The notes under the pieces are model-generated. The model did no database searches, was not told the DNA's origin, and saw only the letters and a program-made list of their open reading frames with translations. A DNA stretch of 64,000 nucleotides from Candidatus Woykebacteria bacterium RBG_13_40_15 (lineage in GTDB: Bacteria > Patescibacteriota > Microgenomatia > Woykebacterales > RBG-16-39-9b). Positions 1,314 to 11,964 of this stretch are shown one piece after another (the first letter of the stretch is position 1; the number at the start of each line of letters is the position of its first letter). Location: NCBI GenBank assembly GCA_001816655.1, contig MHCP01000015.1, positions 96,049 through 160,048 of the forward strand, given 5' to 3'. A program made the position numbers and the translations under genes.

Positions 1314-3266
1314 ATGGGTAAAACAATTGGTATAGATCTTGGAACTACAAATTCGGCTGTTGCTGTGGTTGAAGGCGGTCAGCCAAAAGTAATTCACAGC
1401 GCTGAAGGAGAAAACATTATCCCAAGCGTTGTGGACCCGGTAAAGCACATTGCTGGGAGAGTAGCAAAACGCCAGCAAATTGTAAATCCAAAAGACACAA
1501 TTTTTTCGATCAAAAGGCTGATGGGCCGCCGTTTCAAGGACGAGTCAGTCCAGTATGATATTAGATGGCTTCCATACACGATAAAAGAAGGTAAAGACAG
1601 CGTGGCCGTAGTTGAAGTGCAGGGTAAAGAATATATCCCGCAAGAAATTTCGGCAATGGTCTTGCAAAAAATAAAAGCCGATGCCGAAAGTTACCTCGGT
1701 GAAAAAGTAACTGAAGCAGTAATTACCGTTCCAGCATATTTTGATGATTCACAGCGCCAAGCAACAAAACAAGCCGGTGAAATTGCTGGCCTAGAAGTTA
1801 AAAGAATTATTAACGAGCCGACGGCTGCCGCCCTTGCTTACGGACTAGATAAAGAAAAAGCCCACACTATCGCGGTCTATGATCTTGGTGGCGGGACTTT
1901 TGACATTACGATTTTGGAAATCGGTGAGGGAGTTTTTGAAGTTAAATCAACTGCCGGGGACACACATCTTGGCGGAGACGACTTTGACCAGAAAGTTCTA
2001 AGCTACTTAATTGACGAATTCAAAAAAGAACAGGGAATTGATCTATCCGGTGACAAACAGGCTCTGCAGAGACTGCGCGATGCCGCCGAAAAAGCAAAGG
2101 TCGAGCTTTCCTCTACTGCCGAAGCAGAAATAAATATCCCGTTTATTACCGCCGATTCTTCCGGGCCAAAACACCTGGTTACGAAGTTAACACGCGCGAA
2201 ACTGGAAAGCTTAACAGGTGATCTTGTCGAAAAGAGTTTTGATGCGGTAAAACAGGCGCTTAAAGACGCGAAACTCGAACCTTCAAAAATAGACGAAATC
2301 GTTTTAGTCGGTGGGCAAACCAGAATGCCCGCAGTTGCCGAAAAAGTAAAAAGTTTCTTTGGCAAAGAAGCGCACAAAGGAATAAATCCGGACGAAGTGG
2401 TGGCAGTTGGTGCGGCGATCCAGGGAGCAGTGCTCGCGGGAGAAATGAAGGAGATGGTTTTGCTGGATGTGACTCCCCTTTCCTTAGGAGTTGAAACACT
2501 TGGTGGGGTGATGACCACGTTGATAGCAAGAAACACAACTGTTCCGACAGCAAAAACAGACGTCTTTTCTACTGCGGCGGATAATCAAACCAGTGTTGAA
2601 ATTCACGTGTTGCAAGGTGAGCGGCCAATGGCAGCGGATAATAAGTCACTCGGGCGGTTTATCCTTGAAGGAATTCCGCCCGCGCCAAGAGGTATACCAC
2701 AAGTTGAAGTGACATACGATATTGATGCAAATGGGATTTTGAATGTTACGGCAAAAGACAAAGCAACCGGCAAAGAGCAATCAATAAAAATTACTGGTAG
2801 CACTGGTCTTTCCAAAGACGAAATAGACAAAATGCAAAAAGAAGCAGAAAGCAACGCGGCTGAAGATGCAAAGAGAAAAGAGCTGATAGAAGCGCGAAAT
2901 ATCGCCGACTCTCTCGTGTACACAGCTGAAAAATCAATCAAAGATGCAGGAGATAAATTGCCCGCTGATGTGAAAACAGAAGTTGAGGAAAAAGTAAAAG
3001 CTGCGAAAGAAGCAATTGCCGGCGATGATTTGGAAAAAATCAAAAAAGCAACTGACGAGCTAGGAGCTTCCCTACAAAAAATTGGCTCTTCAATGTACCA
3101 GACCCCTCCGGGCTCCGACAAAACCGAGTCTTCTCCTCAAGACGAAATAAAAGCCGAAGGTGCAACCACTGAGGACACGGAAAAAGAAACCGGAAGCACT
3201 GAGGAGAAAAAAGACGGACCAGTCGAAGGCGAAGTCGTGGACGAAGATAAAGATAAGAAAGAATAA
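1314..3266 (+). CDS. dnaK: Chaperone DnaK (Hsp70)
   Basis: 650 aa with [17 protein letters not shown] and the full Hsp70 ATPase and substrate-binding domains. RBS GGAGG upstream. Confidence 0.97.
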
Positions 3267-3270
3267 AGAT

Positions 3271-3969
3271 ATGAAAAGTTGGTGGGAATTGGGCGAAGGC
3301 GCTGGTTTCAGTGGCAACAAACTATCAACCTATCAAATTGATTGCCCTTTTTGTGAGGAAAGAGACAATTTTGAAGAAGCGGCTCATTTCGAAAAGAAGA
3401 AACCAAACTCATCCAAAGTACTAAATTTTGACACCTTAAAGTGTGGTAACTGCGCAGGCTATGTTATGGTTCTTTGGTCGTCTAGTGACTATGACTTTCA
3501 TTCCGGAATCCACGATTTTCGAGTGTTACCCTGGTCACTTACAATAAATAAAGCCCCTACTCATTGGCCTCAAGCAATACAAAGATATTGGGTGCAAGCA
3601 AATAAATCTTTACAAGTCGAAAACTGGGATGCCGCGGCTGAAATGGCTAGAAGTACATTACAAATTGCTTTAAGAGACCACGGGGCTGTTGGTAAGGATT
3701 TATTTGAGGAAATAAATAATCTTGCAGAGAAAGGAGTGTTGCCACCTCTTATGAAAGAATGGTCTCATGAAGTGAGAGAGCTTGGCAACGACTCAGCCCA
3801 TCCCAGACCAGAGCAAAAAGAAACAAGCCTAGGAGATGCCCGAGATATTGTAGAATTTTTGGACTTTCTTCTCGAATATCTTTACGACTTGCCAAAACGA
3901 ATAGAAGATTATAGAGGAAGAAGGAAAGCCGAAAAAGCAACCACTCAGATCAAAAAGAAAACAAACTAG
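3271..3969 (+). CDS. Zn-ribbon (CPFC..CGNC) plus DUF4145-like C-terminal domain protein
   Basis: Real start is ATG 3271, not the ORF-track start 3160 that overlaps dnaK. Two CxxC pairs N-terminally. C-terminal RELGNDSAH motif resembles the DUF4145 signature. Begins 5 nt after the dnaK stop. Confidence 0.6.
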   Translation: MKSWWELGEGAGFSGNKLSTYQIDCPFCEERDNFEEAAHFEKKKPNSSKVLNFDTLKCGNCAGYVMVLWSSSDYDFHSGIHDFRVLPWSLTINKAPTHWPQAIQRYWVQANKSLQVENWDAAAEMARSTLQIALRDHGAVGKDLFEEINNLAEKGVLPPLMKEWSHEVRELGNDSAHPRPEQKETSLGDARDIVEFLDFLLEYLYDLPKRIEDYRGRRKAEKATTQIKKKTN

Positions 3970-3987
3970 TTGTAACAGTATTCCAAA

Positions 3988-4030
3988 CTCCCAAAAACTT
4001 GAAATTTCTATAAGTCAGATATATAATCGC
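3988..4030 (+). promoter_or_regulatory. Promoter repeat copy A (TTGAAA-17-TATAAT)
   Basis: -35 TTGAAA 3999..4004, 17-nt spacer, -10 TATAAT 4022..4027. First of five copies of CCAAAAACTTGAAATTTCTATAAGTCA...TATAAT. Confidence 0.6.
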
Positions 4031-4128
4031 GAAGATTACATCTAGCCCGTTTCTATGCGGGATTTAATCCCGTCAGTGAATAATGTCGGTACCACTGCAT
4101 TAGTACAGTCCGAAAGGAGAGTCGTCTG

Positions 4129-4539
4129 ATGGCTGACAGGAAAAGATCGACTTCTTGGAGAGCCGATCCAGAGTTCCGGAGAATGGTGGAGGAAAAGAAG
4201 CAAGAGCTGGATTACCTCTTCGGTCTTATCGGTCCGTTCGAGGATTGGGAGGACTGGGATGAGTCTATCCCAGACGAGGACGTGGTCCGCTTAGAGCTGC
4301 ACGTAGGAGACGGCATTGAAAGAGGTCATCTGGAGCTAACCATGGGCGAGCTTCGAAGGGTCAAAGAGCTCGCCGAACTGCTCAAAGTGCTGAAAGAGCA
4401 GAAGATCATGATCGAAGAGCCAGACACGATCGCTAGACTCACCAGCGAGCTAGGATCCGAAAGTGCAAAGAGGGCTCTCGAGGTAGTACTCGGAAGCTTG
4501 ATAATCGAAGGCTGTCCTTGCGACGAACTGTCGGACTAA
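4129..4539 (+). CDS. Hypothetical acidic protein (GC-rich cassette gene 1)
   Basis: 136 aa, GC-rich codon usage unlike the flanks. GGAGAG RBS. No recognisable domain. Ends in CPCDELSD. Confidence 0.5.
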   Translation: MADRKRSTSWRADPEFRRMVEEKKQELDYLFGLIGPFEDWEDWDESIPDEDVVRLELHVGDGIERGHLELTMGELRRVKELAELLKVLKEQKIMIEEPDTIARLTSELGSESAKRALEVVLGSLIIEGCPCDELSD

Positions 4540-4562
4540 TCACGGAAGCGAGGAGGCTTAAA

Positions 4563-4913
4563 ATGCTGACAATAAAAATGACCGGCGACAACGGCCATCT
4601 GCTAACCATAAGCAGAGAAGAAGGCAGAATCCTTATGGAAATGCGATCGCCTGGGGATATGATCCGGGGCTATGAGTTCCGAAAGCATCCCATTAGCCTG
4701 GCTCGGGCGCTCCACTACGTCCTGGCAGTCCCCGAATGTGATGACCTCGCCTTCGTCGAGGAGGATTTCAGAGGCAGGGTTTCCGTCAAGGAGGAGGAGT
4801 ACACCTTGACCTTTGACACCTTGGGCGAGTCAAAAGGCGTTACAGTCAAGGCCCGGCGGGATGACTTTTCCGACGTGGTCGGCCTTTTGGAAAATCTCCC
4901 CAGAGGCTCATGA
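4563..4913 (+). CDS. Hypothetical protein (GC-rich cassette gene 2)
   Basis: GGAGG RBS then ATG 4563 (the ORF track starts earlier at 4518, overlapping gene 1). 116 aa with no recognisable domain. Confidence 0.45.
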   Translation: MLTIKMTGDNGHLLTISREEGRILMEMRSPGDMIRGYEFRKHPISLARALHYVLAVPECDDLAFVEEDFRGRVSVKEEEYTLTFDTLGESKGVTVKARRDDFSDVVGLLENLPRGS

Positions 4914-4989
4914 TCGATCGTCGCCACCAGCGCCTGCCGACAGAGCTCGACTTTAACCGGTCGGGCTCTTCCATCTCTAATAATTTTCC

Positions 4990-5065
4990 AAAAAAAACTT
5001 GAAATTTCTAAAGCGGCTTCTTGTGTGTTGACAGTCGATACACTAAAGGGGTACACTAGCGGTGT
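4990..5065 (+). promoter_or_regulatory. Promoter repeat copy B (truncated) fused to a TTGACA-18-TACACT promoter with TACACT/GTGTA operator-like repeats
   Basis: TTGAAATTTCTA 4999..5010, then TTGACA 5028..5033 and TACACT 5052..5057. TACACT occurs at 5039 and 5052, with inverted GTGTA at 5062. The ATG at 5066 leaves almost no leader. Confidence 0.5.
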
Positions 5066-5329
5066 ATGGTAAAAAGGGTAAATATTTCTTTTCCAGAAAA
5101 AACCTTAAATGATCTGAAAGAGCTTGTACCACCTCGAGAAAGAAGCAAACTGGTGAGTGAGGCCGTCGAAGAAAAGTTAAATGATTTTAAAAGGGCTGTA
5201 GCGTTTGAGAAGCTCGAGAAAGCCCGTGAGAAATTCTCTTCCTTTGAGACTATTAAAAGCAAGGAAGACACTGTTGCTTGGGTAAAAAATATGAGAAAAG
5301 GTTGGAATCGCAGAGAAACCTCGAAGTAA
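5066..5329 (+). CDS. vapB: Ribbon-helix-helix (CopG/VapB-like) antitoxin
   Basis: 87 aa with an N-terminal RHH pattern (RVNISFPEKTLNDLKEL..RERSKLVSEAVEEKL). Immediately upstream of a PIN gene. Confidence 0.7.
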   Translation: MVKRVNISFPEKTLNDLKELVPPRERSKLVSEAVEEKLNDFKRAVAFEKLEKAREKFSSFETIKSKEDTVAWVKNMRKGWNRRETSK

Positions 5330-5334
5330 TCAGA

Positions 5335-5709
5335 ATGAAATTATTGGTTGATACAAACGTTTTTATTGCTTACGGTAAAAAAAGAGATGGCGGTTTGGTT
5401 GATAGAATAAAATCTGAGAACCACGATCTTTACACCTCGGTGGTGTCGCTAGCAGAACTTCGGAGCGGAATCCACAAACGAGACCTAAATTTTTATCAAG
5501 CGATTAAAGAAACCTTTAGGCCGCTGCCTGTCGATTTGGAGATTGCGGATTTGGCTGGCGAATTTAGATACGAATTTTTGAGAAAGGGTTTGGATATAGA
5601 TTTGGCCGACCATATCATAGCTGCGACTGCTTTATTAAATAATTTGGCGCTGGTTACTTTCAACAAAAAAGATTTTCCCCACAAAAATCTCGAGCTGTAT
5701 CCAATTTGA
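5335..5709 (+). CDS. vapC: PIN-domain toxin (VapC-like)
   Basis: Start at ATG 5335 (MKLLVDTNVFI). Conserved D in the LVDTN motif. About 125 aa, 5 nt after the RHH stop. Confidence 0.75.
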   Translation: MKLLVDTNVFIAYGKKRDGGLVDRIKSENHDLYTSVVSLAELRSGIHKRDLNFYQAIKETFRPLPVDLEIADLAGEFRYEFLRKGLDIDLADHIIAATALLNNLALVTFNKKDFPHKNLELYPI

Positions 5710-5722
5710 TAAAATTAGCAAA

Positions 5723-5842
5723 ATGGAAATAAAGGAAACACAGGCGAAAAGTATTTTAACCCCTTCCAAATTCACAACTGCTTATGCAGGAAAGAGAACA
5801 CTTCAATCTATTGATAAATTAAAGTGTTTCCCAAAAACTTGA
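5723..5842 (+). pseudogene. Diverged duplicate of the 5' end of the radical-SAM SplB-like gene (remnant)
   Basis: Encodes MEIKETQAKSILTPSK..., versus MEIKEIAAKSVLTPSK at 7693. About 80% nt identity over the first ~48 nt, then divergence. The stop falls inside promoter repeat C. Confidence 0.55.
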
Positions 5843-5870
5843 AATTTCTATAAGTCAAAGATATAATTCC
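5829..5870 (+). promoter_or_regulatory. Promoter repeat copy C (TTGAAA-17-TATAAT)
   Basis: -35 at 5839..5844 and -10 at 5862..5867. Near-identical to copies A and E. Confidence 0.6.
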
Positions 5871-5964
5871 ACCAACAACAGAAAAGACTCAACCAAGCCA
5901 GCCACTTACCTAAGAAGGGATTTCAAGTGTAGTTTCGGAGGAATACGAAAGGAGCACGGCGGAA

Positions 5965-6702
5965 ATGAGTGAGGGACGAGTTGCTTTGGTCACTGGTTCA
6001 TCTCGTGGAATCGGCCAGGCCATCGCAGTCAAGCTGGCTTCTCAAGGAGCAAGAGTGGCCATCAACTGTTTCCGAGACTTAGATGGTGCAGCTGAAACGC
6101 TGCGCTTAATCGAATCATCTGGAGGCCAGGCCGTCATAATCAGAGCGGATCTCGGTAGTGCCGAAGGAGTTGCCGACCTGCTTGGAAGAACTCAGCAGGC
6201 TCTGGGAGATATCGATATCCTCGTCCACAATGCCGGGTATTTCTATGCCACTCTCCTGCCTCGCTTCAAGAGGGAAGAGTGGGATAAACTGATACAGATT
6301 AACCTGACAGCGGCTTTCGAGCTCGCTAGCGGTGTATATCTGCAAATGGCGAGGAGGAGATGGGGCCGCATTGTCTTCATTTCTTCAGTCATTGCCCTGG
6401 CTGGCAACACCGGTCAGAGTGGTTACGGAGCTGCAAAGGCAGGGCTGATTGGGCTTGCCAAGTCAGTTGCTGTTGAATATGGTGCTAGGGAAATCACCTG
6501 TAACGTCGTTGCGCCAGGATACATCAGAACCAGGATGACCGAGGATGTTCACGAAGAGACCATCGGCGAAGCTTTAGAACGGCAAGCAATCAAACGGCCT
6601 GGAACACCAGAAGACGTAGCTGCCTTGGTCGGTTTTCTAGCTAGCGACGAGGCTAGTTGGATTACTAGGCAGGTATTCCAGGTCGACGGGGGCCTCCTAT
6701 GA
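5965..6702 (+). CDS. Short-chain dehydrogenase/reductase, 3-oxoacyl-ACP reductase (FabG)-like
   Basis: TGSSRGIGQAIA glycine-rich motif and a conserved YGAAK catalytic motif. GC-rich, with a GGAGG RBS. Confidence 0.8.
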   Translation: MSEGRVALVTGSSRGIGQAIAVKLASQGARVAINCFRDLDGAAETLRLIESSGGQAVIIRADLGSAEGVADLLGRTQQALGDIDILVHNAGYFYATLLPRFKREEWDKLIQINLTAAFELASGVYLQMARRRWGRIVFISSVIALAGNTGQSGYGAAKAGLIGLAKSVAVEYGAREITCNVVAPGYIRTRMTEDVHEETIGEALERQAIKRPGTPEDVAALVGFLASDEASWITRQVFQVDGGLL

Positions 6703-6737
6703 TGCGGGGTTCCCCAAACAGGCCGTAACTTGAGCGA

Positions 6738-7175
6738 GTGCTTGGCGCACTTTTGGAAGGAGGAACGGATTTGGCTGGAATAAACGTCGCCCAATTAACG
6801 AAGGGCTACAAATTTCCCCCGATTACCTTTGCCGTCTCAGCCGAGCAGGCAGAGGCATACCGGAAGGTGACCGAGGGTGTCGAGGGATCAAGCTATATCC
6901 CTCCGCTCGGGGCGATCGCATTCGCCCTTCAGTCCCTGCTCGAGCAGGTGGAGTTGCCGGAAGGCTCGGTTCATGGCGGAGAGGGTTACGAGTGCCATAG
7001 CCCAATTGCGGTTGGTAGCGAGCTAATTGCGAATGGCTCTGTCGTTGACCGAGCTGACCGCGGAAGCTTCGCCCTCCTCGAAGTGGAGATCCAACTGACA
7101 GTGGCAGGTTCTTTGGAACCGGCCTTGGTAAGTGGAGCAACACTCGTGACGCCGCTGCTCAAAGGAGGCTACTGA
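6738..7175 (+). CDS. Hotdog-fold protein, MaoC N-terminal-like (HadA-like non-catalytic partner)
   Basis: 145 aa, GC-rich, directly followed and overlapped by a MaoC dehydratase gene. This is the HadA-HadB-like pair arrangement (inference). Confidence 0.45.
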   Translation: MLGALLEGGTDLAGINVAQLTKGYKFPPITFAVSAEQAEAYRKVTEGVEGSSYIPPLGAIAFALQSLLEQVELPEGSVHGGEGYECHSPIAVGSELIANGSVVDRADRGSFALLEVEIQLTVAGSLEPALVSGATLVTPLLKGGY

Positions 7176-7576
7176 TGACTGTTCTAACTGCTCCGGCTGA
7201 GCTTCGTGCCACCCGCCAGTTCGATCAGGAAACCATCAACCGCTACGCCGATCTGGTCGGGGATCACAACCCCATTCATGTCGACGAGGAGTTTGCGAGG
7301 AGCACTCCTTTCGGCGGGACAATTGCCCATGGCATGCTCGTCTTGTCGCTAGCCTCTAACATGCTGGAGAAGCAATTCGGCGACCGGTGGCGAGCGTCGG
7401 GCAAGTTGAAGGTTCGGTTCAAGGCGCCGACCAAAAGCGGAGCTACCGTTACTGCTCAAGCCAGTTTGAAGGAGGGGGAGCAGCCGGCCGACAACAAGAT
7501 CGCGACCTACCGAGTCGAATGCCGGAACGAGCAGAGAGAGGTAGTCATAGTGGGCACTGCGCAGGTTACTCTGTAA
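7175..7576 (+). CDS. MaoC-like (R)-specific dehydratase, hotdog fold (HadB/PhaJ-like)
   Basis: DLVGDHNPIHVD..GGTIAHGM matches the MaoC dehydratase active-site motif. ATGA start overlaps the upstream stop. Confidence 0.75.
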   Translation: MTVLTAPAELRATRQFDQETINRYADLVGDHNPIHVDEEFARSTPFGGTIAHGMLVLSLASNMLEKQFGDRWRASGKLKVRFKAPTKSGATVTAQASLKEGEQPADNKIATYRVECRNEQREVVIVGTAQVTL

Positions 7577-7595
7577 CCCAGTGCCCAAGTTCGGT

Positions 7596-7642
7596 CCCCG
7601 GGGCCTTGCTGTTCCAGCAAAGGTCCCGGGATAGCCTCTTTT
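7596..7642 (+). terminator. Possible intrinsic terminator after the FabG/hotdog cassette
   Basis: Imperfect GC-rich hairpin (CCTTGCTG-ttc-CAGCAAAGG, flanked by CCCCGGGG and TCCCGGGA), then CTCTTTTA. Confidence 0.3.
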
Positions 7643-7692
7643 ATCAGACATTAAGTTCCCAATAAATTCCTATCTTCTGCTAAAATGACTCT

Positions 7693-8541
7693 GTGGAAAT
7701 AAAAGAAATAGCAGCGAAAAGTGTTTTAACTCCCTCCAAACTCCCCGGAGTTGATTTTGTGGTTAATCCTTACATTAGTTGCGGTTTTGCGTGCACTTAT
7801 TGCTACGCAACTTTTATGGCAAGATATGTCGGCAAGACAGCGAACGATTGGGGAAAATTTGTTTTTGTAAAAGAAAACGCTCCCGAAGTTTTAAAAGAGG
7901 AACTAGCAAAACTAAAAAATAAAGGAGCTGGAAAAAGTATCCTTTTTAGTTCTGTCACCGATCCCTATCAAGGTGCAGAATCAAAATATAAAATTACCCA
8001 AAAGTGTCTGGAAGTTTTAGCAGATTTTGGTTTCAGTGGACAAGTTGGAATTTTAACAAAATCCAATTTAGTTTTAAGAGATGCGGATACATTTAAAAAA
8101 CTAAAAGATGTTGAGGTGGGACTGACTATTATAACAACTGATGATAAAATTTCTCGCTATTTTGAAAAATATGCACCAGCTGCAAGTTTAAGACTAGAAG
8201 CCTTGAAGAAACTAAATGAAGAGGGTATAAAAACTTACGTGTTTGTCGGACCTCTTTTGCCTCATTTTGTTGCCGAAGAAGAAAAGCTGGAAAAGCTTTT
8301 TAAAGAGATTTCCGAAACAGGAAACAAGGGGCTTTTTGTGGAACACATAAATTTGAGTAAATATATTTTGGAAAGACTGGAGAGGGAAACAAAAGATTTG
8401 GATAAAAGTACAACAGCCAAGTTTTATGAGTCAAAACAAAAACCTTACAGAGACAGACTGGATGAAATCGTTGTAAAGTTAGTTAAAAAATACAATTTGA
8501 AACTTCGATCCGGCTCCACAATCTACCATCGCGGGTCTTAA
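7693..8541 (+). CDS. Radical SAM protein, SplB-like (DNA-repair photolyase family, COG1533-like)
   Basis: CGFACTYC (CxxxCxxC) near the N-terminus. GTG start. AT-rich, host-like composition. 282 aa. Confidence 0.8.
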   Translation: MEIKEIAAKSVLTPSKLPGVDFVVNPYISCGFACTYCYATFMARYVGKTANDWGKFVFVKENAPEVLKEELAKLKNKGAGKSILFSSVTDPYQGAESKYKITQKCLEVLADFGFSGQVGILTKSNLVLRDADTFKKLKDVEVGLTIITTDDKISRYFEKYAPAASLRLEALKKLNEEGIKTYVFVGPLLPHFVAEEEKLEKLFKEISETGNKGLFVEHINLSKYILERLERETKDLDKSTTAKFYESKQKPYRDRLDEIVVKLVKKYNLKLRSGSTIYHRGS

Positions 8542-8547
8542 ATTTTC

Positions 8548-8585
8548 CCCACTAAACTTGAAGATTTATCTATTTGTAGTATAAT
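8548..8585 (+). promoter_or_regulatory. Promoter repeat copy D (diverged, TTGAAG-16-TATAAT)
   Basis: CCCCACTAAACTTGAAGATTTATCTATTTGTAGTATAAT. -35 at 8558..8563 and -10 at 8580..8585. Confidence 0.5.
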
Positions 8586-8641
8586 CTGCGCACAATCGAA
8601 TATATTGGAGAGTGCTTCGAAAAACCTTCGAGAAAGGAGGG

Positions 8642-9388
8642 ATGGTTGCCATGTTGCGCTTTCTTCAGCAGCTAACAAGGCGACTCCGAGGAAGAAGTCT
8701 AACCAAGGCCAAGCTTTGGTTGGCGCTTTTGTCCTTGGTGTTCTTGCCTCTTTTTGTGAGTGCCGAGCCTGCCTGTGAGGCGCAGAAGATCCGCGAGCGG
8801 TATGGAGTGGAGATTGTGCTCGTGGGTCAGAGCTGGAGCGAGACCAGCCTGGGCGCGGTTGACGACGCTTTGAGTCGACTTCCACCGCATGTCGTCAGCC
8901 AATTGGGTAGCCGGTTCAACGGCAGTCTGTACATACTGTGCAACACTGAGTCGCGTACCCTATCCGGTACCAGCGTCTTCTCGCACGGCGCGAACTTCTA
9001 CTCCAATAGTGACGGCCGCAACGAGCTCGTCCTCTACCCCGACCAGAGTACACCCACTGTCCTGCACGAACTAGCCCATGCCTATCAACTCCGCTTAGTT
9101 CCAGCGGGAAAGTACGCTCTGGTCTTTCGAGACGAGAAGATGAAGGACTTCATGCAAGCCACCGGTTGGCGTCTACTTAGCTCCGATGCGCAGGTGGAAA
9201 CTGCTCTTGATCAGACACAGCTAAGCTTCGCCTATGATGGTCCGACGGTCTGGCATTTCATGTCCAACAACGACCCGCTGGAGGACTACGCGAACTCGTT
9301 CGCCCTGTTCTTCTACGACCTGGAGCGTCTTCGCCAACTCTCGCCAGTGCGCTACGACTGGATCCTAGAGCACGTGGCCAGCGAGTGA
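8642..9388 (+). CDS. Secreted putative Zn-metallopeptidase-like protein (HELAH motif)
   Basis: Start is ATG 8642, after an AAAGGAGGG RBS. N-terminal hydrophobic signal-like segment. HEXXH motif (VLHELAHAYQ). GC-rich. Confidence 0.55.
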   Translation: MVAMLRFLQQLTRRLRGRSLTKAKLWLALLSLVFLPLFVSAEPACEAQKIRERYGVEIVLVGQSWSETSLGAVDDALSRLPPHVVSQLGSRFNGSLYILCNTESRTLSGTSVFSHGANFYSNSDGRNELVLYPDQSTPTVLHELAHAYQLRLVPAGKYALVFRDEKMKDFMQATGWRLLSSDAQVETALDQTQLSFAYDGPTVWHFMSNNDPLEDYANSFALFFYDLERLRQLSPVRYDWILEHVASE

Positions 9389-9427
9389 AGTTGATGACGA
9401 CGAAGTGCCGAGAATCAGTGAACAGTC

Positions 9428-9457
9428 AAAGGCCCTTGCAGCCAGCGAGGGCCCTTT
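9428..9457 (+). terminator. Possible terminator hairpin after the HEXXH gene
   Basis: AAAGGCCC-ttgcagccagcga-GGGCCCTTT, followed by a short T-run. Confidence 0.35.
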
Positions 9458-9465
9458 CTAATTCC

Positions 9466-9502
9466 CCAAAACTTGAAATTTCTATAAGTCATACATTATA
9501 AT
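9466..9502 (+). promoter_or_regulatory. Promoter repeat copy E (TTGAAA-18-TATAAT)
   Basis: -35 at 9473..9478 and -10 at 9497..9502. Its downstream leader shares GAAAGGAGGGATGG with copy D's leader. Confidence 0.6.
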
Positions 9503-9569
9503 TCCACCACAATTGAATATCGCGGACGGTGTCCTCCGAGAAATCGAAGGGCTTTCAAAGAAAGGAGGG

Positions 9570-10562
9570 ATGGCCGAGATGGCTACCCGACTGCCTCAAA
9601 AAGGGATGGCACCTGGTGCTACCCGAGGCAAACCTGTTACCCTTGAGCAGGTTCTCGATCTGTTGGAACGATTGAAGGGGAAGAAGTTCGGGTTAAGGGA
9701 GTTTCAGAGACTCATTGAGTCGTTCGATGTCCTCGCTCTTATTGGGAGCGGAGAACTGACGAGGGAGACGTTGCGCCTTATCCTTACCCCTAATGAGGGC
9801 TGGGCCGCTGGCGAACTTCAAAGGATGCTGAGTTCCTACTTCCCTTTCTGGAATGAGGAAATTGAGTCCTCACAAGGCTATCCCGATGGTTACCGATTCA
9901 AGTCTGCAGCCGGGAAGCTGCTAGCCTTGCAGAGTCTTCACCTTCTCGGTACCGATGACTATGGCAGCCACGTAAAAGAGCTAGCCACCCACTACGCTCG
10001 CAACATGCCTAAGGGAGCCGAGGAGCTTTTAGTTTGCCCGAAACCCTCAAGGGCGAAGGAGTGGGGGTTAACTTACTCCTACAACCTACCCTTAAGTAGT
10101 GCGTTGATAATCCTAGACAGGGCCATAAAGCCAAGGTTCCAAAACTGGTGGAAAGATGAGCAGCTTGGCGACACCGAGATGCTAAGACTCACCGACAAAA
10201 CTGCAGCAGCGCTCGACAAGCTGGAGGCGGAAACACCAGGAGACTACCTAGTCATTCCTGTCCAGATGGGGATGAGGCACCGTGGCAGAAGCGCTCGTAG
10301 AGCTGTAGCCTGCTTCGCCGAAAACGAGTTCGGTCTCGGTCCTCTCGAAGTCGCCTACTACCTTGCTAGCTGTCCCGAGCGGTTCGTCATGTGGTACGAT
10401 CTAGGGATTATCTGCGCAGGTGCCGAATGCAAAGATAGTCCTAAGGGGGAGTTCGACGGTTGCCCAGCCTTCAACGAGCACCAGGATAGGATCAATCTTC
10501 GCTACCGCCGAGCTGACGAGTACAGTGATTTGTATGGGGTGGCGACCGGCTTCCTGTCGTAG
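9570..10562 (+). CDS. Hypothetical protein (GC-rich orphan, 330 aa)
   Basis: Start is ATG 9570 after an AAAGGAGGG RBS. No recognisable domain. Cys-rich C-terminus. Confidence 0.5.
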   Translation: MAEMATRLPQKGMAPGATRGKPVTLEQVLDLLERLKGKKFGLREFQRLIESFDVLALIGSGELTRETLRLILTPNEGWAAGELQRMLSSYFPFWNEEIESSQGYPDGYRFKSAAGKLLALQSLHLLGTDDYGSHVKELATHYARNMPKGAEELLVCPKPSRAKEWGLTYSYNLPLSSALIILDRAIKPRFQNWWKDEQLGDTEMLRLTDKTAAALDKLEAETPGDYLVIPVQMGMRHRGRSARRAVACFAENEFGLGPLEVAYYLASCPERFVMWYDLGIICAGAECKDSPKGEFDGCPAFNEHQDRINLRYRRADEYSDLYGVATGFLS

Positions 10563-10594
10563 CTCATCCACCTTCTAACCACAGTTGTTAACAA

Positions 10595-10632
10595 GGCGCC
10601 CGACTCTAACCCAGTCGGGCGCTACCATTTCT
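10595..10632 (+). terminator. Intrinsic terminator at the right end of the island
   Basis: Perfect 9-10 bp stem GGCGCCCGAC / GTCGGGCGC with a 9-nt loop, then TACCATTTCT. Confidence 0.5.
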
Positions 10633-10681
10633 AATACTATTAGCAAATTTTGGTTGAATCTGCTAAAATTCATCACTAGTT

Positions 10682-10834
10682 ATGGCTGAAAAACGTGATT
10701 ACTACCAAATCTTAGGCGTAGGAAAAACAGCCTCCGCCGATGAAATAGCATCCTTTGTATGCGAAAAAGACATTCGTATTTTTCGCGTACTCCCGGATGC
10801 TGCGATTAAGCATAGGCTACGCCTATTAGCTTAA
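10682..10834 (+). pseudogene. Diverged duplicate of the dnaJ 5' end (J-domain start), remnant ORF
   Basis: Encodes MAEKRDYYQILGVGKTASADEI, then unrelated sequence. Compare dnaJ MAKRDYYEVLGVSKTASADDI 190 nt downstream. Confidence 0.5.
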
Positions 10835-10869
10835 TCTTTAAAAAAGCTTATTATTTTGATTAACTATTT

Positions 10870-11964
10870 ATGGCAAAAAGAGATTACTACGAAGTGCTAG
10901 GGGTTTCGAAAACCGCTAGTGCTGACGACATAAAGAAAGCATACAGAGGTATGGCACGGAAGCATCATCCGGATGTGGATAAAACAGCTGGTGCAGAAGG
11001 ACGGTTTAAAGAAATAAACGAAGCCTACCAAGTTTTGTCTGACGCCCAAAAGCGGGAGGCTTATGACCGCTTTGGCCACGCTGCTTTTCAAGCGGGTGGC
11101 GCTCAAGGACAGCCGGGTGGCGGTTTTCAATATCAGTACGGACCTGGAGTTTCTTTTGATTTTGATTTCGGGGGTTTCCGAGACCCATTTGATATTTTTG
11201 AAGAATTTTTTGGATCGAGATCTCCTTTTGGTAGACAAAGTAGGCGAGGCCCGGCACGTGGGCAAGATCTTCATTTTGAAATTACCCTACCTTTTGAAAA
11301 CGCTGCTTTTGGGGTGACACGAAATATAGAAATTCCCCGACGCGAAACTTGTTCGGAATGCAGCGGTAGCGGCGCAGCAAAAGGAAGTAAGCCAGTTACT
11401 TGCCCAGCCTGCAGAGGTTCGGGACGAGTGAGCAACCAGACACAGTCTATTTTCGGCGCTTTTATGACGATGTCTCCTTGCCCAACCTGTAGGGGTGAGG
11501 GGACAGTAATCCTCAAGAAATGCCCAAAATGCAAAGGTAGTGGAATAGTGCGCGGAATCAAAGAAACCCAAATTAAAATCCCGGCTGGTGTCGATGACGG
11601 CGACACTATCCGTTTCCAGAGGCTTGGTGAAGCCGGCGAAAAAGGCGGTGAGTACGGAGACCTTTATTTAACTATCAGAGTTCTCCCTCACAAATTTTTG
11701 AAAAGAGCCGGTTTCGATGTTTATTACGAACAACCAATTTCTTTTACTCAAGCAGCACTTGGTGATGTAATAGAAGTACCGACGCTGGACGGAAAAGTAA
11801 ATTTGAAAATCCCAGAAGGAATTCAGACTGGAACGGAACTGCGGTTAAAAGAAAGAGGAATTGTGCATGGACAGTCCCGCGGCGATCAATACGTTAGAGT
11901 AAAAGTGGTAACCCCTAAACACCTTTCCGCTCGGCAGAAGGAAGCTTTAGAAGAGTTGAAATAG
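10870..11964 (+). CDS. dnaJ: Chaperone DnaJ
   Basis: J-domain with HPD. G/F-rich region. Four CxxCxGxG zinc-finger repeats. C-terminal domains. Confidence 0.95.
   Translation: MAKRDYYEVLGVSKTASADDIKKAYRGMARKHHPDVDKTAGAEGRFKEINEAYQVLSDAQKREAYDRFGHAAFQAGGAQGQPGGGFQYQYGPGVSFDFDFGGFRDPFDIFEEFFGSRSPFGRQSRRGPARGQDLHFEITLPFENAAFGVTRNIEIPRRETCSECSGSGAAKGSKPVTCPACRGSGRVSNQTQSIFGAFMTMSPCPTCRGEGTVILKKCPKCKGSGIVRGIKETQIKIPAGVDDGDTIRFQRLGEAGEKGGEYGDLYLTIRVLPHKFLKRAGFDVYYEQPISFTQAALGDVIEVPTLDGKVNLKIPEGIQTGTELRLKERGIVHGQSRGDQYVRVKVVTPKHLSARQKEALEELK

What the first reader, a model, noticed from the sequence alone, without database searches (positions are those of the whole stretch)
3271..3969. Zn-ribbon plus DUF4145-like protein translationally coupled to dnaK
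The gene starts 5 nt after the dnaK stop. It has two CxxC pairs (CPFC...CGNC) and a C-terminal RELGNDSAH motif resembling the DUF4145 signature, a domain known mainly from abortive-infection, restriction and defence contexts. Its attachment to the heat-shock chaperone transcript makes it stress-induced, and it is followed by a cassette of unknown small ORFs. It is a candidate sensor or effector of a small defence or stress module.
Basis: partly seen in the sequence, partly recalled or inferred. Interest (0 to 1): 0.55.

Follow-up and report, generated by a model that had tools for sequence, protein, structure and literature searches.

The report
RAZR-type antiphage RNase behind dnaK
The gene right after dnaK is a distant relative of RAZR (PD-T7-4), a known one-protein antiphage RNase, and it sits next to the chaperone gene because that spot is an insertion hotspot in this bacterial lineage, so it is a new member of a known defence family rather than a new kind of stress module.

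Summary
A 232-aa ORF (3271-3969, +) starts 4 nt after the dnaK stop. It has two CxxC pairs and an R-x7-H motif inside a clear DUF4145 domain (Pfam E 1.4e-17).

The dnaK link looks incidental. The closest Woykebacteria have dnaK followed directly by dnaJ. Here a 7.6-kb mosaic island fills that spacer, and other relatives carry different cargo at the same spot. None of 80 homologous loci has dnaK or the downstream ORFs nearby, and no neighbouring gene is conserved. The downstream "cassette" has its own promoter copy and a different GC content.

Co-transcription with the hrcA-grpE-dnaK operon is likely but unproven.

Two differences from E. coli RAZR stand out. The zinc-finger domain is the most conserved region in this clade, and the known oligomer-interface residues are not kept.

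Verdict: new member of a known kind, modest interest.

The parts
3271..3969 (+). RAZR-like (PD-T7-4 family) gene, 232 aa: zinc-finger sensor domain plus DUF4145/HEPN RNase domain
   Evidence: ORF and sequence. Pfam DUF4145 E 1.4e-17. PADLOC PD-T7-4 E 1.1e-11, residues 19-215. PHROG_1305 E 3.3e-32. hhalign to the RAZR-Ec clade: 97.1%, E 7.5e-11.
3271..3336 (+). N-terminal 22-residue extension with invariant S3-W4-W5, G8, G12, G15. Absent from E. coli RAZR.
   Evidence: Alignment A1 invariants. The PADLOC and hhalign matches start at residues 19 and 23.
3337..3483 (+). Cys4 zinc-ribbon domain (residues 23-71). CxxC pairs at nt 3343-3354 and 3442-3453.
   Evidence: C25/C28/C58/C61 are invariant. 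They align with C16/C19/C49/C52 of the RAZR-Ec clade. The AF2 model has beta strands 34-43, 50-58, 64-71 and 80-87.
3484..3570 (+). Clade-specific insert plus proline/tryptophan-rich linker (residues 72-100) between the two domains
   Evidence: Invariant P87, P96, W99, P100. Aligns with the RAZR linker, residues 64-80.
3571..3915 (+). HEPN (DUF4145) RNase domain, residues 101-215. Predicted catalytic R169 (3775-3777), N173, H177 (3799-3801).
1314..3266 (+). dnaK, upstream gene. Last native gene of the hrcA-grpE-orf80-dnaK block before the insertion.
   Evidence: Identical to DnaK of Candidatus Woykebacteria RBG_13_40_15. Synteny with relatives.
3267..3270 (+). 4-nt spacer AGAT between the dnaK stop and the start codon. 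Left edge of the insertion.
   Evidence: Sequence. Relatives diverge right after the TAA.
3981..4043 (+). Copy of the native dnaK-dnaJ intergenic promoter element (TTCCAAACTCCCAAAAACTTGAAATTTCTA...TATAAT), 11 nt after the stop. Right edge of the insertion and promoter of the next module.
   Evidence: 93% match to L083 11990-12019. Promoter-like 11/12 match. Repeat family D1/D2.
3267..10869 (+). 7.6-kb mosaic island between dnaK and dnaJ. Contents: RAZR-like gene, two unknown ORFs, RHH+PIN (VapBC-like), SDR, two MaoC-like, radical SAM, two unknown ORFs, dnaJ 5' remnant.
   Evidence: Relatives have 135-200 nt at this position. Pfam/NCBIfam of the cargo. GC per module 0.36-0.58.
10870..11964 (+). 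dnaJ, the native right-hand neighbour of dnaK in relatives
   Evidence: Pfam DnaJ, DnaJ_C, DnaJ_CXXCXGXG. Synteny.

Best explanation
The ORF encodes a divergent RAZR-type (PD-T7-4 family) single-protein abortive-infection system.

**Proposed mechanism.** The N-terminal Cys4 zinc-ribbon domain senses a phage protein. The C-terminal DUF4145/HEPN domain dimerises to form a composite R-x7-H RNase site (R169, H177). Once activated, it cleaves cellular and phage RNA non-specifically, shuts down translation and aborts the infection.

**How it got here.** The gene arrived by horizontal transfer as a bare ORF. It was dropped between the dnaK stop codon and the dnaJ promoter, a spacer that serves as a cargo hotspot in Woykebacteria. 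It therefore probably rides on the hrcA-grpE-dnaK transcript and is translated by re-initiation or from the A-rich leader.

**Shown here:** architecture, homology to RAZR over both domains, conserved catalytic and zinc-binding residues, HEPN fold, single-gene status, patchy cross-phylum distribution, insertion into a hotspot.

**Inferred:** RNase activity, antiphage role, activation by ring-shaped phage proteins, co-transcription with dnaK.
For: **Family assignment**
- Pfam DUF4145 E 1.4e-17.
- PADLOC PD-T7-4 E 1.1e-11 over residues 19-215. All 30 clade members hit that model and no other. As a control, the same model scores 339 bits on E. coli RAZR-clade proteins.
- The only PDB sequence hit is 9y9c, whose 24 chains are named 'DUF4145 domain-containing protein'. 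I take it to be the RAZR-Gp77 complex. Profile E 1.8e-6, with R169/H177 on R146/H154.
- hhalign between the clade profile and the RAZR-Ec clade profile: probability 97.1%, E 7.5e-11, 176 columns covering both CxxC pairs, the linker and the HEPN domain.

**Published function**
- RAZR biology and mechanism: PMC13017515.
- PD-T7-4 discovery, and its frequent overlap with an integrase gene: PMC9519451.

**Single gene, mobile**
- No neighbour family is shared by more than 3 of 56 loci.
- Homologues are 55-68% identical across more than 10 phyla.
- Neighbours include Mrr, HinfI restriction-modification, integrase, PIN toxin-antitoxin, transposase, Cas3, DrmD and AriA.
- Temperate phages carry homologues in moron-type positions.

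**Insertion**
- Relatives with 91-94% identical DnaK have dnaK-dnaJ adjacent.
- Native sequence resumes 11 nt after the stop codon.
Against: - Only about 20% identity to the characterised RAZR. It scores 42.6 bits on the family model against 339 for close members.
- The residues shown to mediate higher-order oligomerisation in RAZR-Ec are not conserved. D179, D180, R184 and V21 correspond to E202, Y203, L207 and E30 here. Ring-activated assembly cannot be assumed.
- In this clade the zinc-finger domain is the most conserved part (mean pairwise identity 0.71, HEPN 0.67). In RAZR it is the most variable part and sets phage specificity. The trigger logic may differ.
- Many homologues sit among housekeeping genes rather than in defence islands.
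- There is no experimental or expression evidence for this organism.
Confidence: 0.72

Rival explanations
1. Stress-gated defence module. The gene was selected to sit on the HrcA-controlled dnaK transcript, so that proteotoxic stress or phage-induced stress raises the level of the sentinel RNase. This may work together with the downstream ORFs.
For: - A 4-nt spacer, no promoter-like site on the + strand between 1420 and 3999, and no Shine-Dalgarno sequence.
- Relatives carry a TTGACA promoter overlapping a CIRCE-like palindrome upstream of hrcA, and a TTAGCA-N15-TGCTAA operator upstream of dnaJ. Heat-shock control of the operon is therefore plausible.
Against: - The arrangement is unique. 0 of 80 homologous loci have dnaK, grpE, hrcA or the downstream ORFs within 6 kb.
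- The closest relatives lack the gene at this site.
- The same spacer holds unrelated cargo in other Woykebacteria.
- 18 of 53 homologues sit within 60 nt behind some unrelated same-strand ORF, so riding on a neighbour's transcript is a general habit of the family.
- The downstream ORFs have their own promoter copy and a different GC content.
Confidence: 0.1
2. HEPN toxin of a toxin-antitoxin pair, with one of the downstream unknown ORFs (4129-4539 or 4518-4913) acting as its antitoxin.
For: - HEPN domains are common toxins of type II and type VII toxin-antitoxin systems (PMC3710099).
- Two small ORFs of unknown function follow the gene.
Against: - There is no MNT or other nucleotidyltransferase nearby.
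- The downstream ORFs are absent from all 80 homologous loci, and no partner is conserved.
- They lie 159 nt away, behind their own promoter-like element, and have 53% GC.
- RAZR works as a single gene.
Confidence: 0.04
3. Housekeeping zinc-finger co-factor of the DnaK chaperone system, or an RNA-quality-control factor that belongs to the heat-shock operon.
For: - Position directly after dnaK.
- CGNCAG loosely resembles the DnaJ CxxCxGxG repeat (sequence).
Against: - No DnaJ-type Pfam hit.
- Absent from the operon in eight related loci.
- Patchy distribution across phyla at 55-68% identity, which fits horizontal transfer.
- Homologues occur in prophages and defence islands.
Confidence: 0.02
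4. Functionless passenger. An intact but unexpressed or inert ORF carried along in a mosaic, recombination-prone spacer.
For: - The island is a patchwork of GC-discordant modules and gene remnants: a dnaJ 5' remnant and a radical-SAM 5' remnant.
- The ORF has no promoter or Shine-Dalgarno sequence of its own.
Against: - The ORF is full-length and every family-invariant residue is intact.
- Its GC (0.41) matches the genome (0.41).
- About half of the genes in this window also lack a clear Shine-Dalgarno sequence.
- The tight placement behind a highly expressed gene favours expression.
Confidence: 0.08

Closest known systems
RAZR (ring-activated zinc-finger RNase; PD-T7-4) of E. coli and Klebsiella. 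Zhang et al., Nature 2026 (PMC13017515); Vassallo et al. 2022 (PMC9519451); PDB 9y9c.
   Same: - Same two-domain architecture and similar size (232 aa here, 219 aa in RAZR).
- The four zinc-binding cysteines, the Pro-rich linker and the catalytic R-x7-H align: C25/28/58/61 with C16/19/49/52, and R169/H177 with R146/H154.
- Single-gene system with no conserved partner.
- Found on mobile elements, in prophages and in defence islands.
   Different: - About 20% identity. The family HMM gives 43 bits, against 339 for the E. coli clade.
- An extra N-terminal 22 residues with an invariant SWW/G motif, and a roughly 10-residue insert after the second CxxC.
- The oligomer-interface residues D179/D180/R184/V21 are not kept.
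- The zinc-finger domain is the best-conserved region here (0.71). In RAZR it is the most variable (0.46 in my sample).
- The host is a Patescibacteria (CPR) bacterium, and the gene is fused onto the dnaK operon.
DUF4145-type HEPN domains in general (Pfam PF13643; Anantharaman et al. 2013, PMC3710099)
   Same: - The 2013 survey already lists zinc-ribbon fusions among DUF4145 architectures, and notes links to restriction-modification and abortive-infection systems.
   Different: Most DUF4145 proteins described there are fused to restriction-endonuclease, helicase, TIR, AbiJ-NTD or transmembrane modules, or sit in restriction-modification, TerD or McrBC operons. None of those partners is present here.
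Prophage-encoded homologues (PHROG_1305, annotated 'DNA binding protein'), e.g. Shigella Stx phage 75/02 gp19, Burkholderia phage phi644-2, Streptococcus phage SM1 gp7
   Same: - Full-length profile match (E 3.3e-32, residues 19-223).
- 25-31% identity by tblastn.
- The Stx-phage copy lies beside a Ren-like exclusion gene and a RelE/ParE toxin gene, a typical accessory or defence slot.
   Different: - The 'DNA binding protein' name is an untested annotation.
- The Stx-phage protein gives no PDB sequence hit by itself.
- The window gene is chromosomal, with no phage genes around it.
HEPN toxins of HEPN-MNT toxin-antitoxin systems, and other HEPN abortive-infection proteins (AbiV, LsoA/RnlA, Csm6)
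   Different: - No MNT antitoxin and no CARF or other sensor domain.
- The spacing is R-x7-H rather than the canonical R-x4-6-H (sequence).
- The sensor is a zinc ribbon in the same polypeptide.

Membership tests
RAZR / PD-T7-4 | N-terminal Cys4 zinc-ribbon domain | tested here: met
   C25, C28, C58 and C61 are invariant in 30/30 homologues. They align column for column with C16/C19/C49/C52 of the E. coli clade. The region is a beta-strand domain in the AF2 model. Zinc binding itself was not tested.
RAZR / PD-T7-4 | C-terminal DUF4145 domain with a HEPN fold | tested here: met
   [not shown]
RAZR / PD-T7-4 | Catalytic arginine and histidine, R146 and H154, spaced R-x7-H | tested here: met
   R169-x7-H177 aligns with R146/H154 of 9y9c and the RAZR-Ec clade. 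H177 is invariant and R169 is kept in at least 90%.
RAZR / PD-T7-4 | Significant match to the family profile over both domains | tested here: met
   PADLOC PDLC04109 E 1.1e-11, residues 19-215 against profile positions 10-192 of 211. hhalign 97.1%. The score is low (42.6 bits, against 339 for the E. coli clade), so this is a distant branch.
RAZR / PD-T7-4 | Conserved interdomain linker that packs on the HEPN domain | tested here: inconclusive
   A Pro-rich linker is present and aligns (P87, P96, W99, P100 against P66, P74, P76, P79). The residues differ, and a 10-residue insert precedes it.
RAZR / PD-T7-4 | Dimer-dimer interface residues needed for higher-order oligomers (D179, D180, R184, V21) | tested here: not met
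   The aligned residues are E202, Y203, L207 and E30 (roles). Only the acidic character at position 179 is kept. A different interface is possible.
RAZR / PD-T7-4 | Works as a single gene with no conserved partner | tested here: met
   The largest cluster of homologous neighbours covers 3 of 56 loci. The window's own neighbours are absent from all 80 loci.
RAZR / PD-T7-4 | The zinc-finger domain is the most variable region (specificity determinant) | tested here: not met
   In this clade: zinc-finger domain mean pairwise identity 0.71, HEPN 0.67. In my sample of the E. coli clade: 0.46 and 0.87 (paper statement). Caveat: the E. coli sample was collected with a HEPN-only query.
RAZR / PD-T7-4 | Abortive-infection phage defence; activation by 12- or 24-mer phage rings (portal, Gp77); non-specific ssRNA cleavage | not testable with these tools
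   Needs phage assays, biochemistry and cryo-EM. The properties are known only for the E. coli and Klebsiella proteins.
HEPN-MNT toxin-antitoxin | Adjacent minimal nucleotidyltransferase (MNT) antitoxin gene | tested here: not met
   No nucleotidyltransferase among the neighbours. No conserved partner in homologous loci.
Restriction-modification- or McrBC/TerD-linked DUF4145 | Fusion to, or an operon with, restriction, helicase or methylase genes | tested here: not met
   None in the window within 7 kb. Such neighbours occur in only some homologous loci, e.g. L001 with Mrr and HinfI restriction-modification.
DnaK chaperone operon component | Conserved presence and position in the operon of related genomes | tested here: not met
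   Absent between dnaK and dnaJ in L081-L085 and L088-L090.

The most novel reading that the evidence does not exclude
This widely transferred clade may not be a phage-specific RAZR copy. Its features are a strongly conserved zinc-finger domain, an invariant N-terminal SWW motif and an altered oligomer interface. It could sense a conserved, perhaps non-variable, signal: a universal feature of phage rings, or a host complex disturbed by infection. In this CPR bacterium its fusion to the HrcA-controlled dnaK transcript would then make it a stress-gated suicide RNase, tying the heat-shock response to abortive infection.
Probability: 0.08. Interest if true: 0.55.

Novelty: new member of a known kind. 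Interest (0 to 1): 0.3.

Why it matters
- It turns a 'hypothetical protein' in a Candidate Phyla Radiation genome into a specific, testable assignment: a RAZR-type abortive-infection RNase.
- The RAZR architecture extends, at about 20% identity, into a large clade that spreads horizontally across more than ten phyla, including Patescibacteria.
- The clade reverses the conservation pattern reported for RAZR: the sensor domain is conserved and the known oligomer contacts are not. That makes it a useful comparison for asking what the zinc-finger domain recognises, and whether ring-templated activation is general.
- The locus also documents a small insertion hotspot between dnaK and dnaJ in Woykebacteria, where incoming genes can borrow chaperone-operon transcription.

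Tried and rejected
- **NCBIfam.** Nothing significant.
- **Pfam Lar_restr_allev.** E 0.011, below the cut-off. I treat it only as a generic CxxC...CxxC resemblance.
- **Conserved partner gene.** All-against-all BLAST of 213 neighbour ORFs found none. Pooled Pfam and PADLOC scans of 110 immediate neighbours gave a heterogeneous mix, with no family in more than 2 loci. This is qualitative only, not an enrichment statistic.
- **dnaK, grpE, hrcA and the downstream ORFs near homologues.** None found.
- **Canonical CIRCE (TTAGCACTC-N9-GAGTGCTAA) in the window.** None with up to 3 mismatches. Only a degenerate TTAGCA-N15-TGCTAA, in front of a dnaJ remnant.
- **The window protein in the contig index.** Not on record.
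- **Stx-phage homologue against the PDB.** No hit, so it could not serve as a bridge. I rebuilt the E. coli RAZR clade from the 9y9c fragment instead.
- **Integron-cassette reading of the repeated junctions.** Considered but not pursued. No integrase is present, and the cassettes carry promoters.
- **DnaJ-like zinc finger.** Rejected.

Full report
**1. What is there**

The window comes from Candidatus Woykebacteria bacterium RBG_13_40_15, a Patescibacteria/CPR metagenome bin. The ORF product is 100% identical to 'hypothetical protein A2172_01175', and the upstream protein is identical to that bin's DnaK.

The ORF runs from ATG 3271 to TAG 3969 (232 aa). The dnaK stop TAA is at 3264-3266, so four bases (AGAT) separate the genes.

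The two CxxC pairs (C25PFC28, C58GNC61) and RELGNDSAH (R169...H177) are present. They are not chance features. In an alignment with 29 homologues the four cysteines, N173 and H177 are invariant, and R169 is kept in at least 90%. Pfam gives DUF4145 at E 1.4e-17 for residues 110-197.

**2. What it is**

PADLOC's only hit is PD-T7-4 (E 1.1e-11, residues 19-215 against profile positions 10-192 of 211). PHROGs gives a full-length match to phrog_1305 (E 3.3e-32).

PD-T7-4 was found in a functional screen of E. coli (PMC9519451). In 2026 it was characterised and renamed RAZR, ring-activated zinc-finger RNase (PMC13017515):
- an N-terminal Cys4 zinc ribbon senses phage proteins that form large rings (portal, Gp77);
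- the C-terminal DUF4145 domain is a divergent HEPN RNase with catalytic R146 and H154;
- the activated protein cleaves ssRNA non-specifically and aborts the infection.

The evidence that ties the window protein to this family:
- The only PDB sequence hit is 9y9c, a 24-chain entry named 'DUF4145 domain-containing protein', which I take to be the RAZR-Gp77 complex. E is 0.046 with the single sequence and 1.8e-6 with a profile. R169/H177 fall exactly on R146/H154.
- I rebuilt the E. coli RAZR clade from the aligned 9y9c fragment and compared profiles. hhalign gives 97.1% probability and E 7.5e-11 over 176 columns, window residues 23-214 against RAZR 14-191. The match covers both CxxC pairs, the linker and the HEPN domain.
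- The AlphaFold2 model (pLDDT 85.7) has a four-stranded N-terminal domain and a helical C-terminal domain.

As a control, the PD-T7-4 model scores 339 bits on E. coli-clade proteins and 43-55 bits on the window's clade. All 30 clade members hit that model and nothing else.

The protein is therefore a genuine but distant RAZR-family member, at about 20% identity.

**3. Distribution and neighbours**

- 786 clusters (90% identity) match at E <= 1e-3.
- A full scan of 50%-identity representatives gives 3,059 hits at E <= 1e-3 and 37 at E <= 1e-30.
- In species-representative genomes the clade appears in Gamma- and Betaproteobacteria, Desulfobacterota, Acidobacteriota, Gemmatimonadota, Planctomycetota, Verrucomicrobiota, Nitrospirota, Poribacteria, Omnitrophota and several Patescibacteria. 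Identity is 55-66% throughout. That pattern points to horizontal spread.

Neighbours are not conserved. Among 213 flanking ORFs from 56 loci, the largest homologous group has three members. The neighbours are a mix:
- defence and mobile genes, including Mrr, HinfI restriction-modification, integrase, resolvase, PIN/MazE, a DDE transposase, Cas3, DrmD, AriA, AbiEii-like ATPases and SLATT;
- plain housekeeping genes, including tRNA synthetases, greA and pyruvate kinase.

Temperate phages carry 25-31% identical homologues. In Shigella Stx phage 75/02 the gene sits beside a Ren-like exclusion gene and a RelE/ParE toxin gene.

All of this fits a self-contained single-gene defence system. I did not compute a formal defence-island enrichment.

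**4. Why it is next to dnaK**

None of the 80 related loci has dnaK, grpE, hrcA or the window's downstream ORFs within 6 kb.

Woykebacteria with 91-94% identical DnaK have the order hrcA-grpE-orf80-dnaK-(135-200 nt)-dnaJ-nusA-infB-rpsO-pnp-udg-rnj. In the window dnaJ is at 10870, so 7.6 kb has been inserted in that spacer.

More distant relatives show different cargo at the same place:
- L088: 760 nt with no called gene.
- L089: a 90-aa ORF plus a PIN-domain gene, a 101-aa ORF and NUDIX.
- L090: a 292-aa ORF, a 90-aa ORF plus a PIN-domain gene, and NUDIX.

The spacer is therefore a lineage-specific hotspot.

Within the island the RAZR-like ORF is framed by native sequence on both sides. The dnaK stop lies 4 nt upstream. 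Eleven nt after its stop codon comes the native intergenic element TTCCAAACTCCCAAAAACTTGAAATTTCTA (93% to L083). It was inserted as a bare ORF.

Being tucked closely behind an unrelated same-strand gene is common in the family: 18 of 53 loci have a gap of at most 60 nt, by crude ORF calling.

**5. Expression (inferred)**

- No sigma-70-like site lies on the + strand between 1420 and 3999, and there is no room for a terminator.
- There is no Shine-Dalgarno sequence, only an A-rich leader. About half the genes in this window also lack a clear one.
- Relatives have a TTGACA promoter overlapping a TTAGCAC-TC-GTGCTAA palindrome upstream of hrcA, which suggests HrcA control.

Co-transcription with dnaK and translation by re-initiation are likely, so heat-shock inducibility is plausible. 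Nothing suggests it was selected for.

**6. The downstream 'cassette'**

ORFs 4129-4539 and 4518-4913 have no family match. They have 53.5% GC against 40.8% for the RAZR-like gene. They sit behind an 11/12 promoter-like site at 3999-4027 and never accompany homologues. They are independent cargo.

**7. Differences from characterised RAZR**

- An N-terminal 22-residue extension with invariant S3 W4 W5 G8 G12 G15, and a roughly 10-residue insert after the second CxxC.
- The residues whose mutation breaks higher-order oligomerisation and defence in RAZR-Ec (D179, D180, R184, V21) correspond to E202, Y203, L207 and E30.
- The zinc-finger domain is the most conserved segment in this clade (0.71, HEPN 0.67). 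In RAZR it is the most variable and sets phage specificity (0.46 against 0.87 in my sample). My E. coli sample was gathered with a HEPN-only query, which exaggerates the contrast. The paper reports the same trend independently.

These points lower confidence that the ring-templated activation mechanism transfers unchanged. They do not weaken the family assignment.

**8. Verdict**

- Homology to RAZR/PD-T7-4: about 0.95.
- Antiphage abortive-infection RNase function in this organism: about 0.7.
- Ring-activated mechanism specifically: about 0.4.

The zinc-ribbon plus DUF4145 architecture was listed in 2013 (PMC3710099). The defence phenotype was shown in 2022 and the mechanism in 2026. This is a new, divergent member of a known kind.

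The 'stress module with dnaK and the downstream cassette' idea is not supported.

Noticed in passing
window 3267-10869; loci L081-L085, L088-L090: The dnaK-dnaJ spacer is a recurrent cargo hotspot in Woykebacteria. It is empty (135-200 nt) in five loci from the closest relatives. It is 760 nt without genes in L088, 1.9 kb in L089, 2.4 kb in L090 and 7.6 kb in the window. L089 and L090 share a 90-aa ORF plus a PIN-domain gene (71% and 64% identical to each other, unrelated to the window's) and a NUDIX gene.
   Followed up: partly
window 3988-4043, 4993-5010, 5828-5883, 9462-9517: A promoter-like element (AAAACTTGAAATTTCTATAAGTCA ... TATAAT) occurs three times exactly and once partially. Each copy sits at the head of an island module, and there is no copy elsewhere in the 64 kb. 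It derives from the native dnaJ promoter region of relatives. The copy at 3981-4010 resembles the L083-type spacer and the one at 5800-5851 the L084-type spacer. That suggests serial recombination with different Woykebacteria lineages.
   Followed up: partly
window 10640-10747: A CIRCE-like operator (TTAGCA-N15-TGCTAA, 10640-10666) is followed by a roughly 65-nt remnant of a dnaJ 5' end (10683-10747, 87% identical to the L084 dnaJ). Both lie 120 nt upstream of the real dnaJ start at 10870. The real dnaJ has therefore lost its native operator and promoter arrangement.
   Followed up: partly
window 4948-4985 and 10600-10635; also 9430-9460: The high-GC modules end in GC-rich hairpins followed by (CCAT)TTCTAAT. 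The two at about 4950 and about 10600 are clearly related to each other (CGACT[T/C]TAACC..GTCGGGC + CCAT[C/T]TCTAATA). They could be shared terminators from one donor or a junction signature of the insertion process. This is unexplained.
   Followed up: no
window 4129-10562: GC content alternates sharply between modules:
- 0.535 for ORFs 4129-4913
- 0.39 for vapBC-like genes
- 0.53 to 0.58 for SDR and MaoC-like genes
- 0.36 for the radical SAM gene
- 0.54 to 0.56 for ORFs 8612 and 9513

The whole window is 0.41. The island looks assembled from several donors.
   Followed up: partly
window 5724-5773 vs 7694-7743: A 50-nt stretch just after the PIN gene is 82% identical to the 5' end of the radical-SAM ORF (7693-8541). 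It is another gene-start remnant inside the island.
   Followed up: no
window 5066-5709: A ribbon-helix-helix plus PIN (VapBC-like) toxin-antitoxin pair: PIN Pfam E 7e-15 and NCBIfam VapC E 3.5e-14 (below the curated cut-off). Apart from the RAZR-like gene, it is the only other conflict-type module in the island.
   Followed up: partly
L055 5256-5945 and 6001-6651: A Pseudomonadales genome carries two RAZR-like genes in tandem. The upstream one is only 27% identical to the window protein.
   Followed up: no
protein P0070 (314 aa): One clade member has a C-terminal extension of about 90 residues with further CxxC pairs, a possible second zinc-binding module fused to the RAZR-like core.
   Followed up: no
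L081 8500-8566: Upstream of hrcA in a close relative, a TTGACA -35 box overlaps a short palindrome, TTAGCAC-TC-GTGCTAA. This looks like CIRCE half-sites with a collapsed spacer and may be a variant HrcA operator in this lineage. The window starts inside hrcA, so its own copy is not visible.
   Followed up: no
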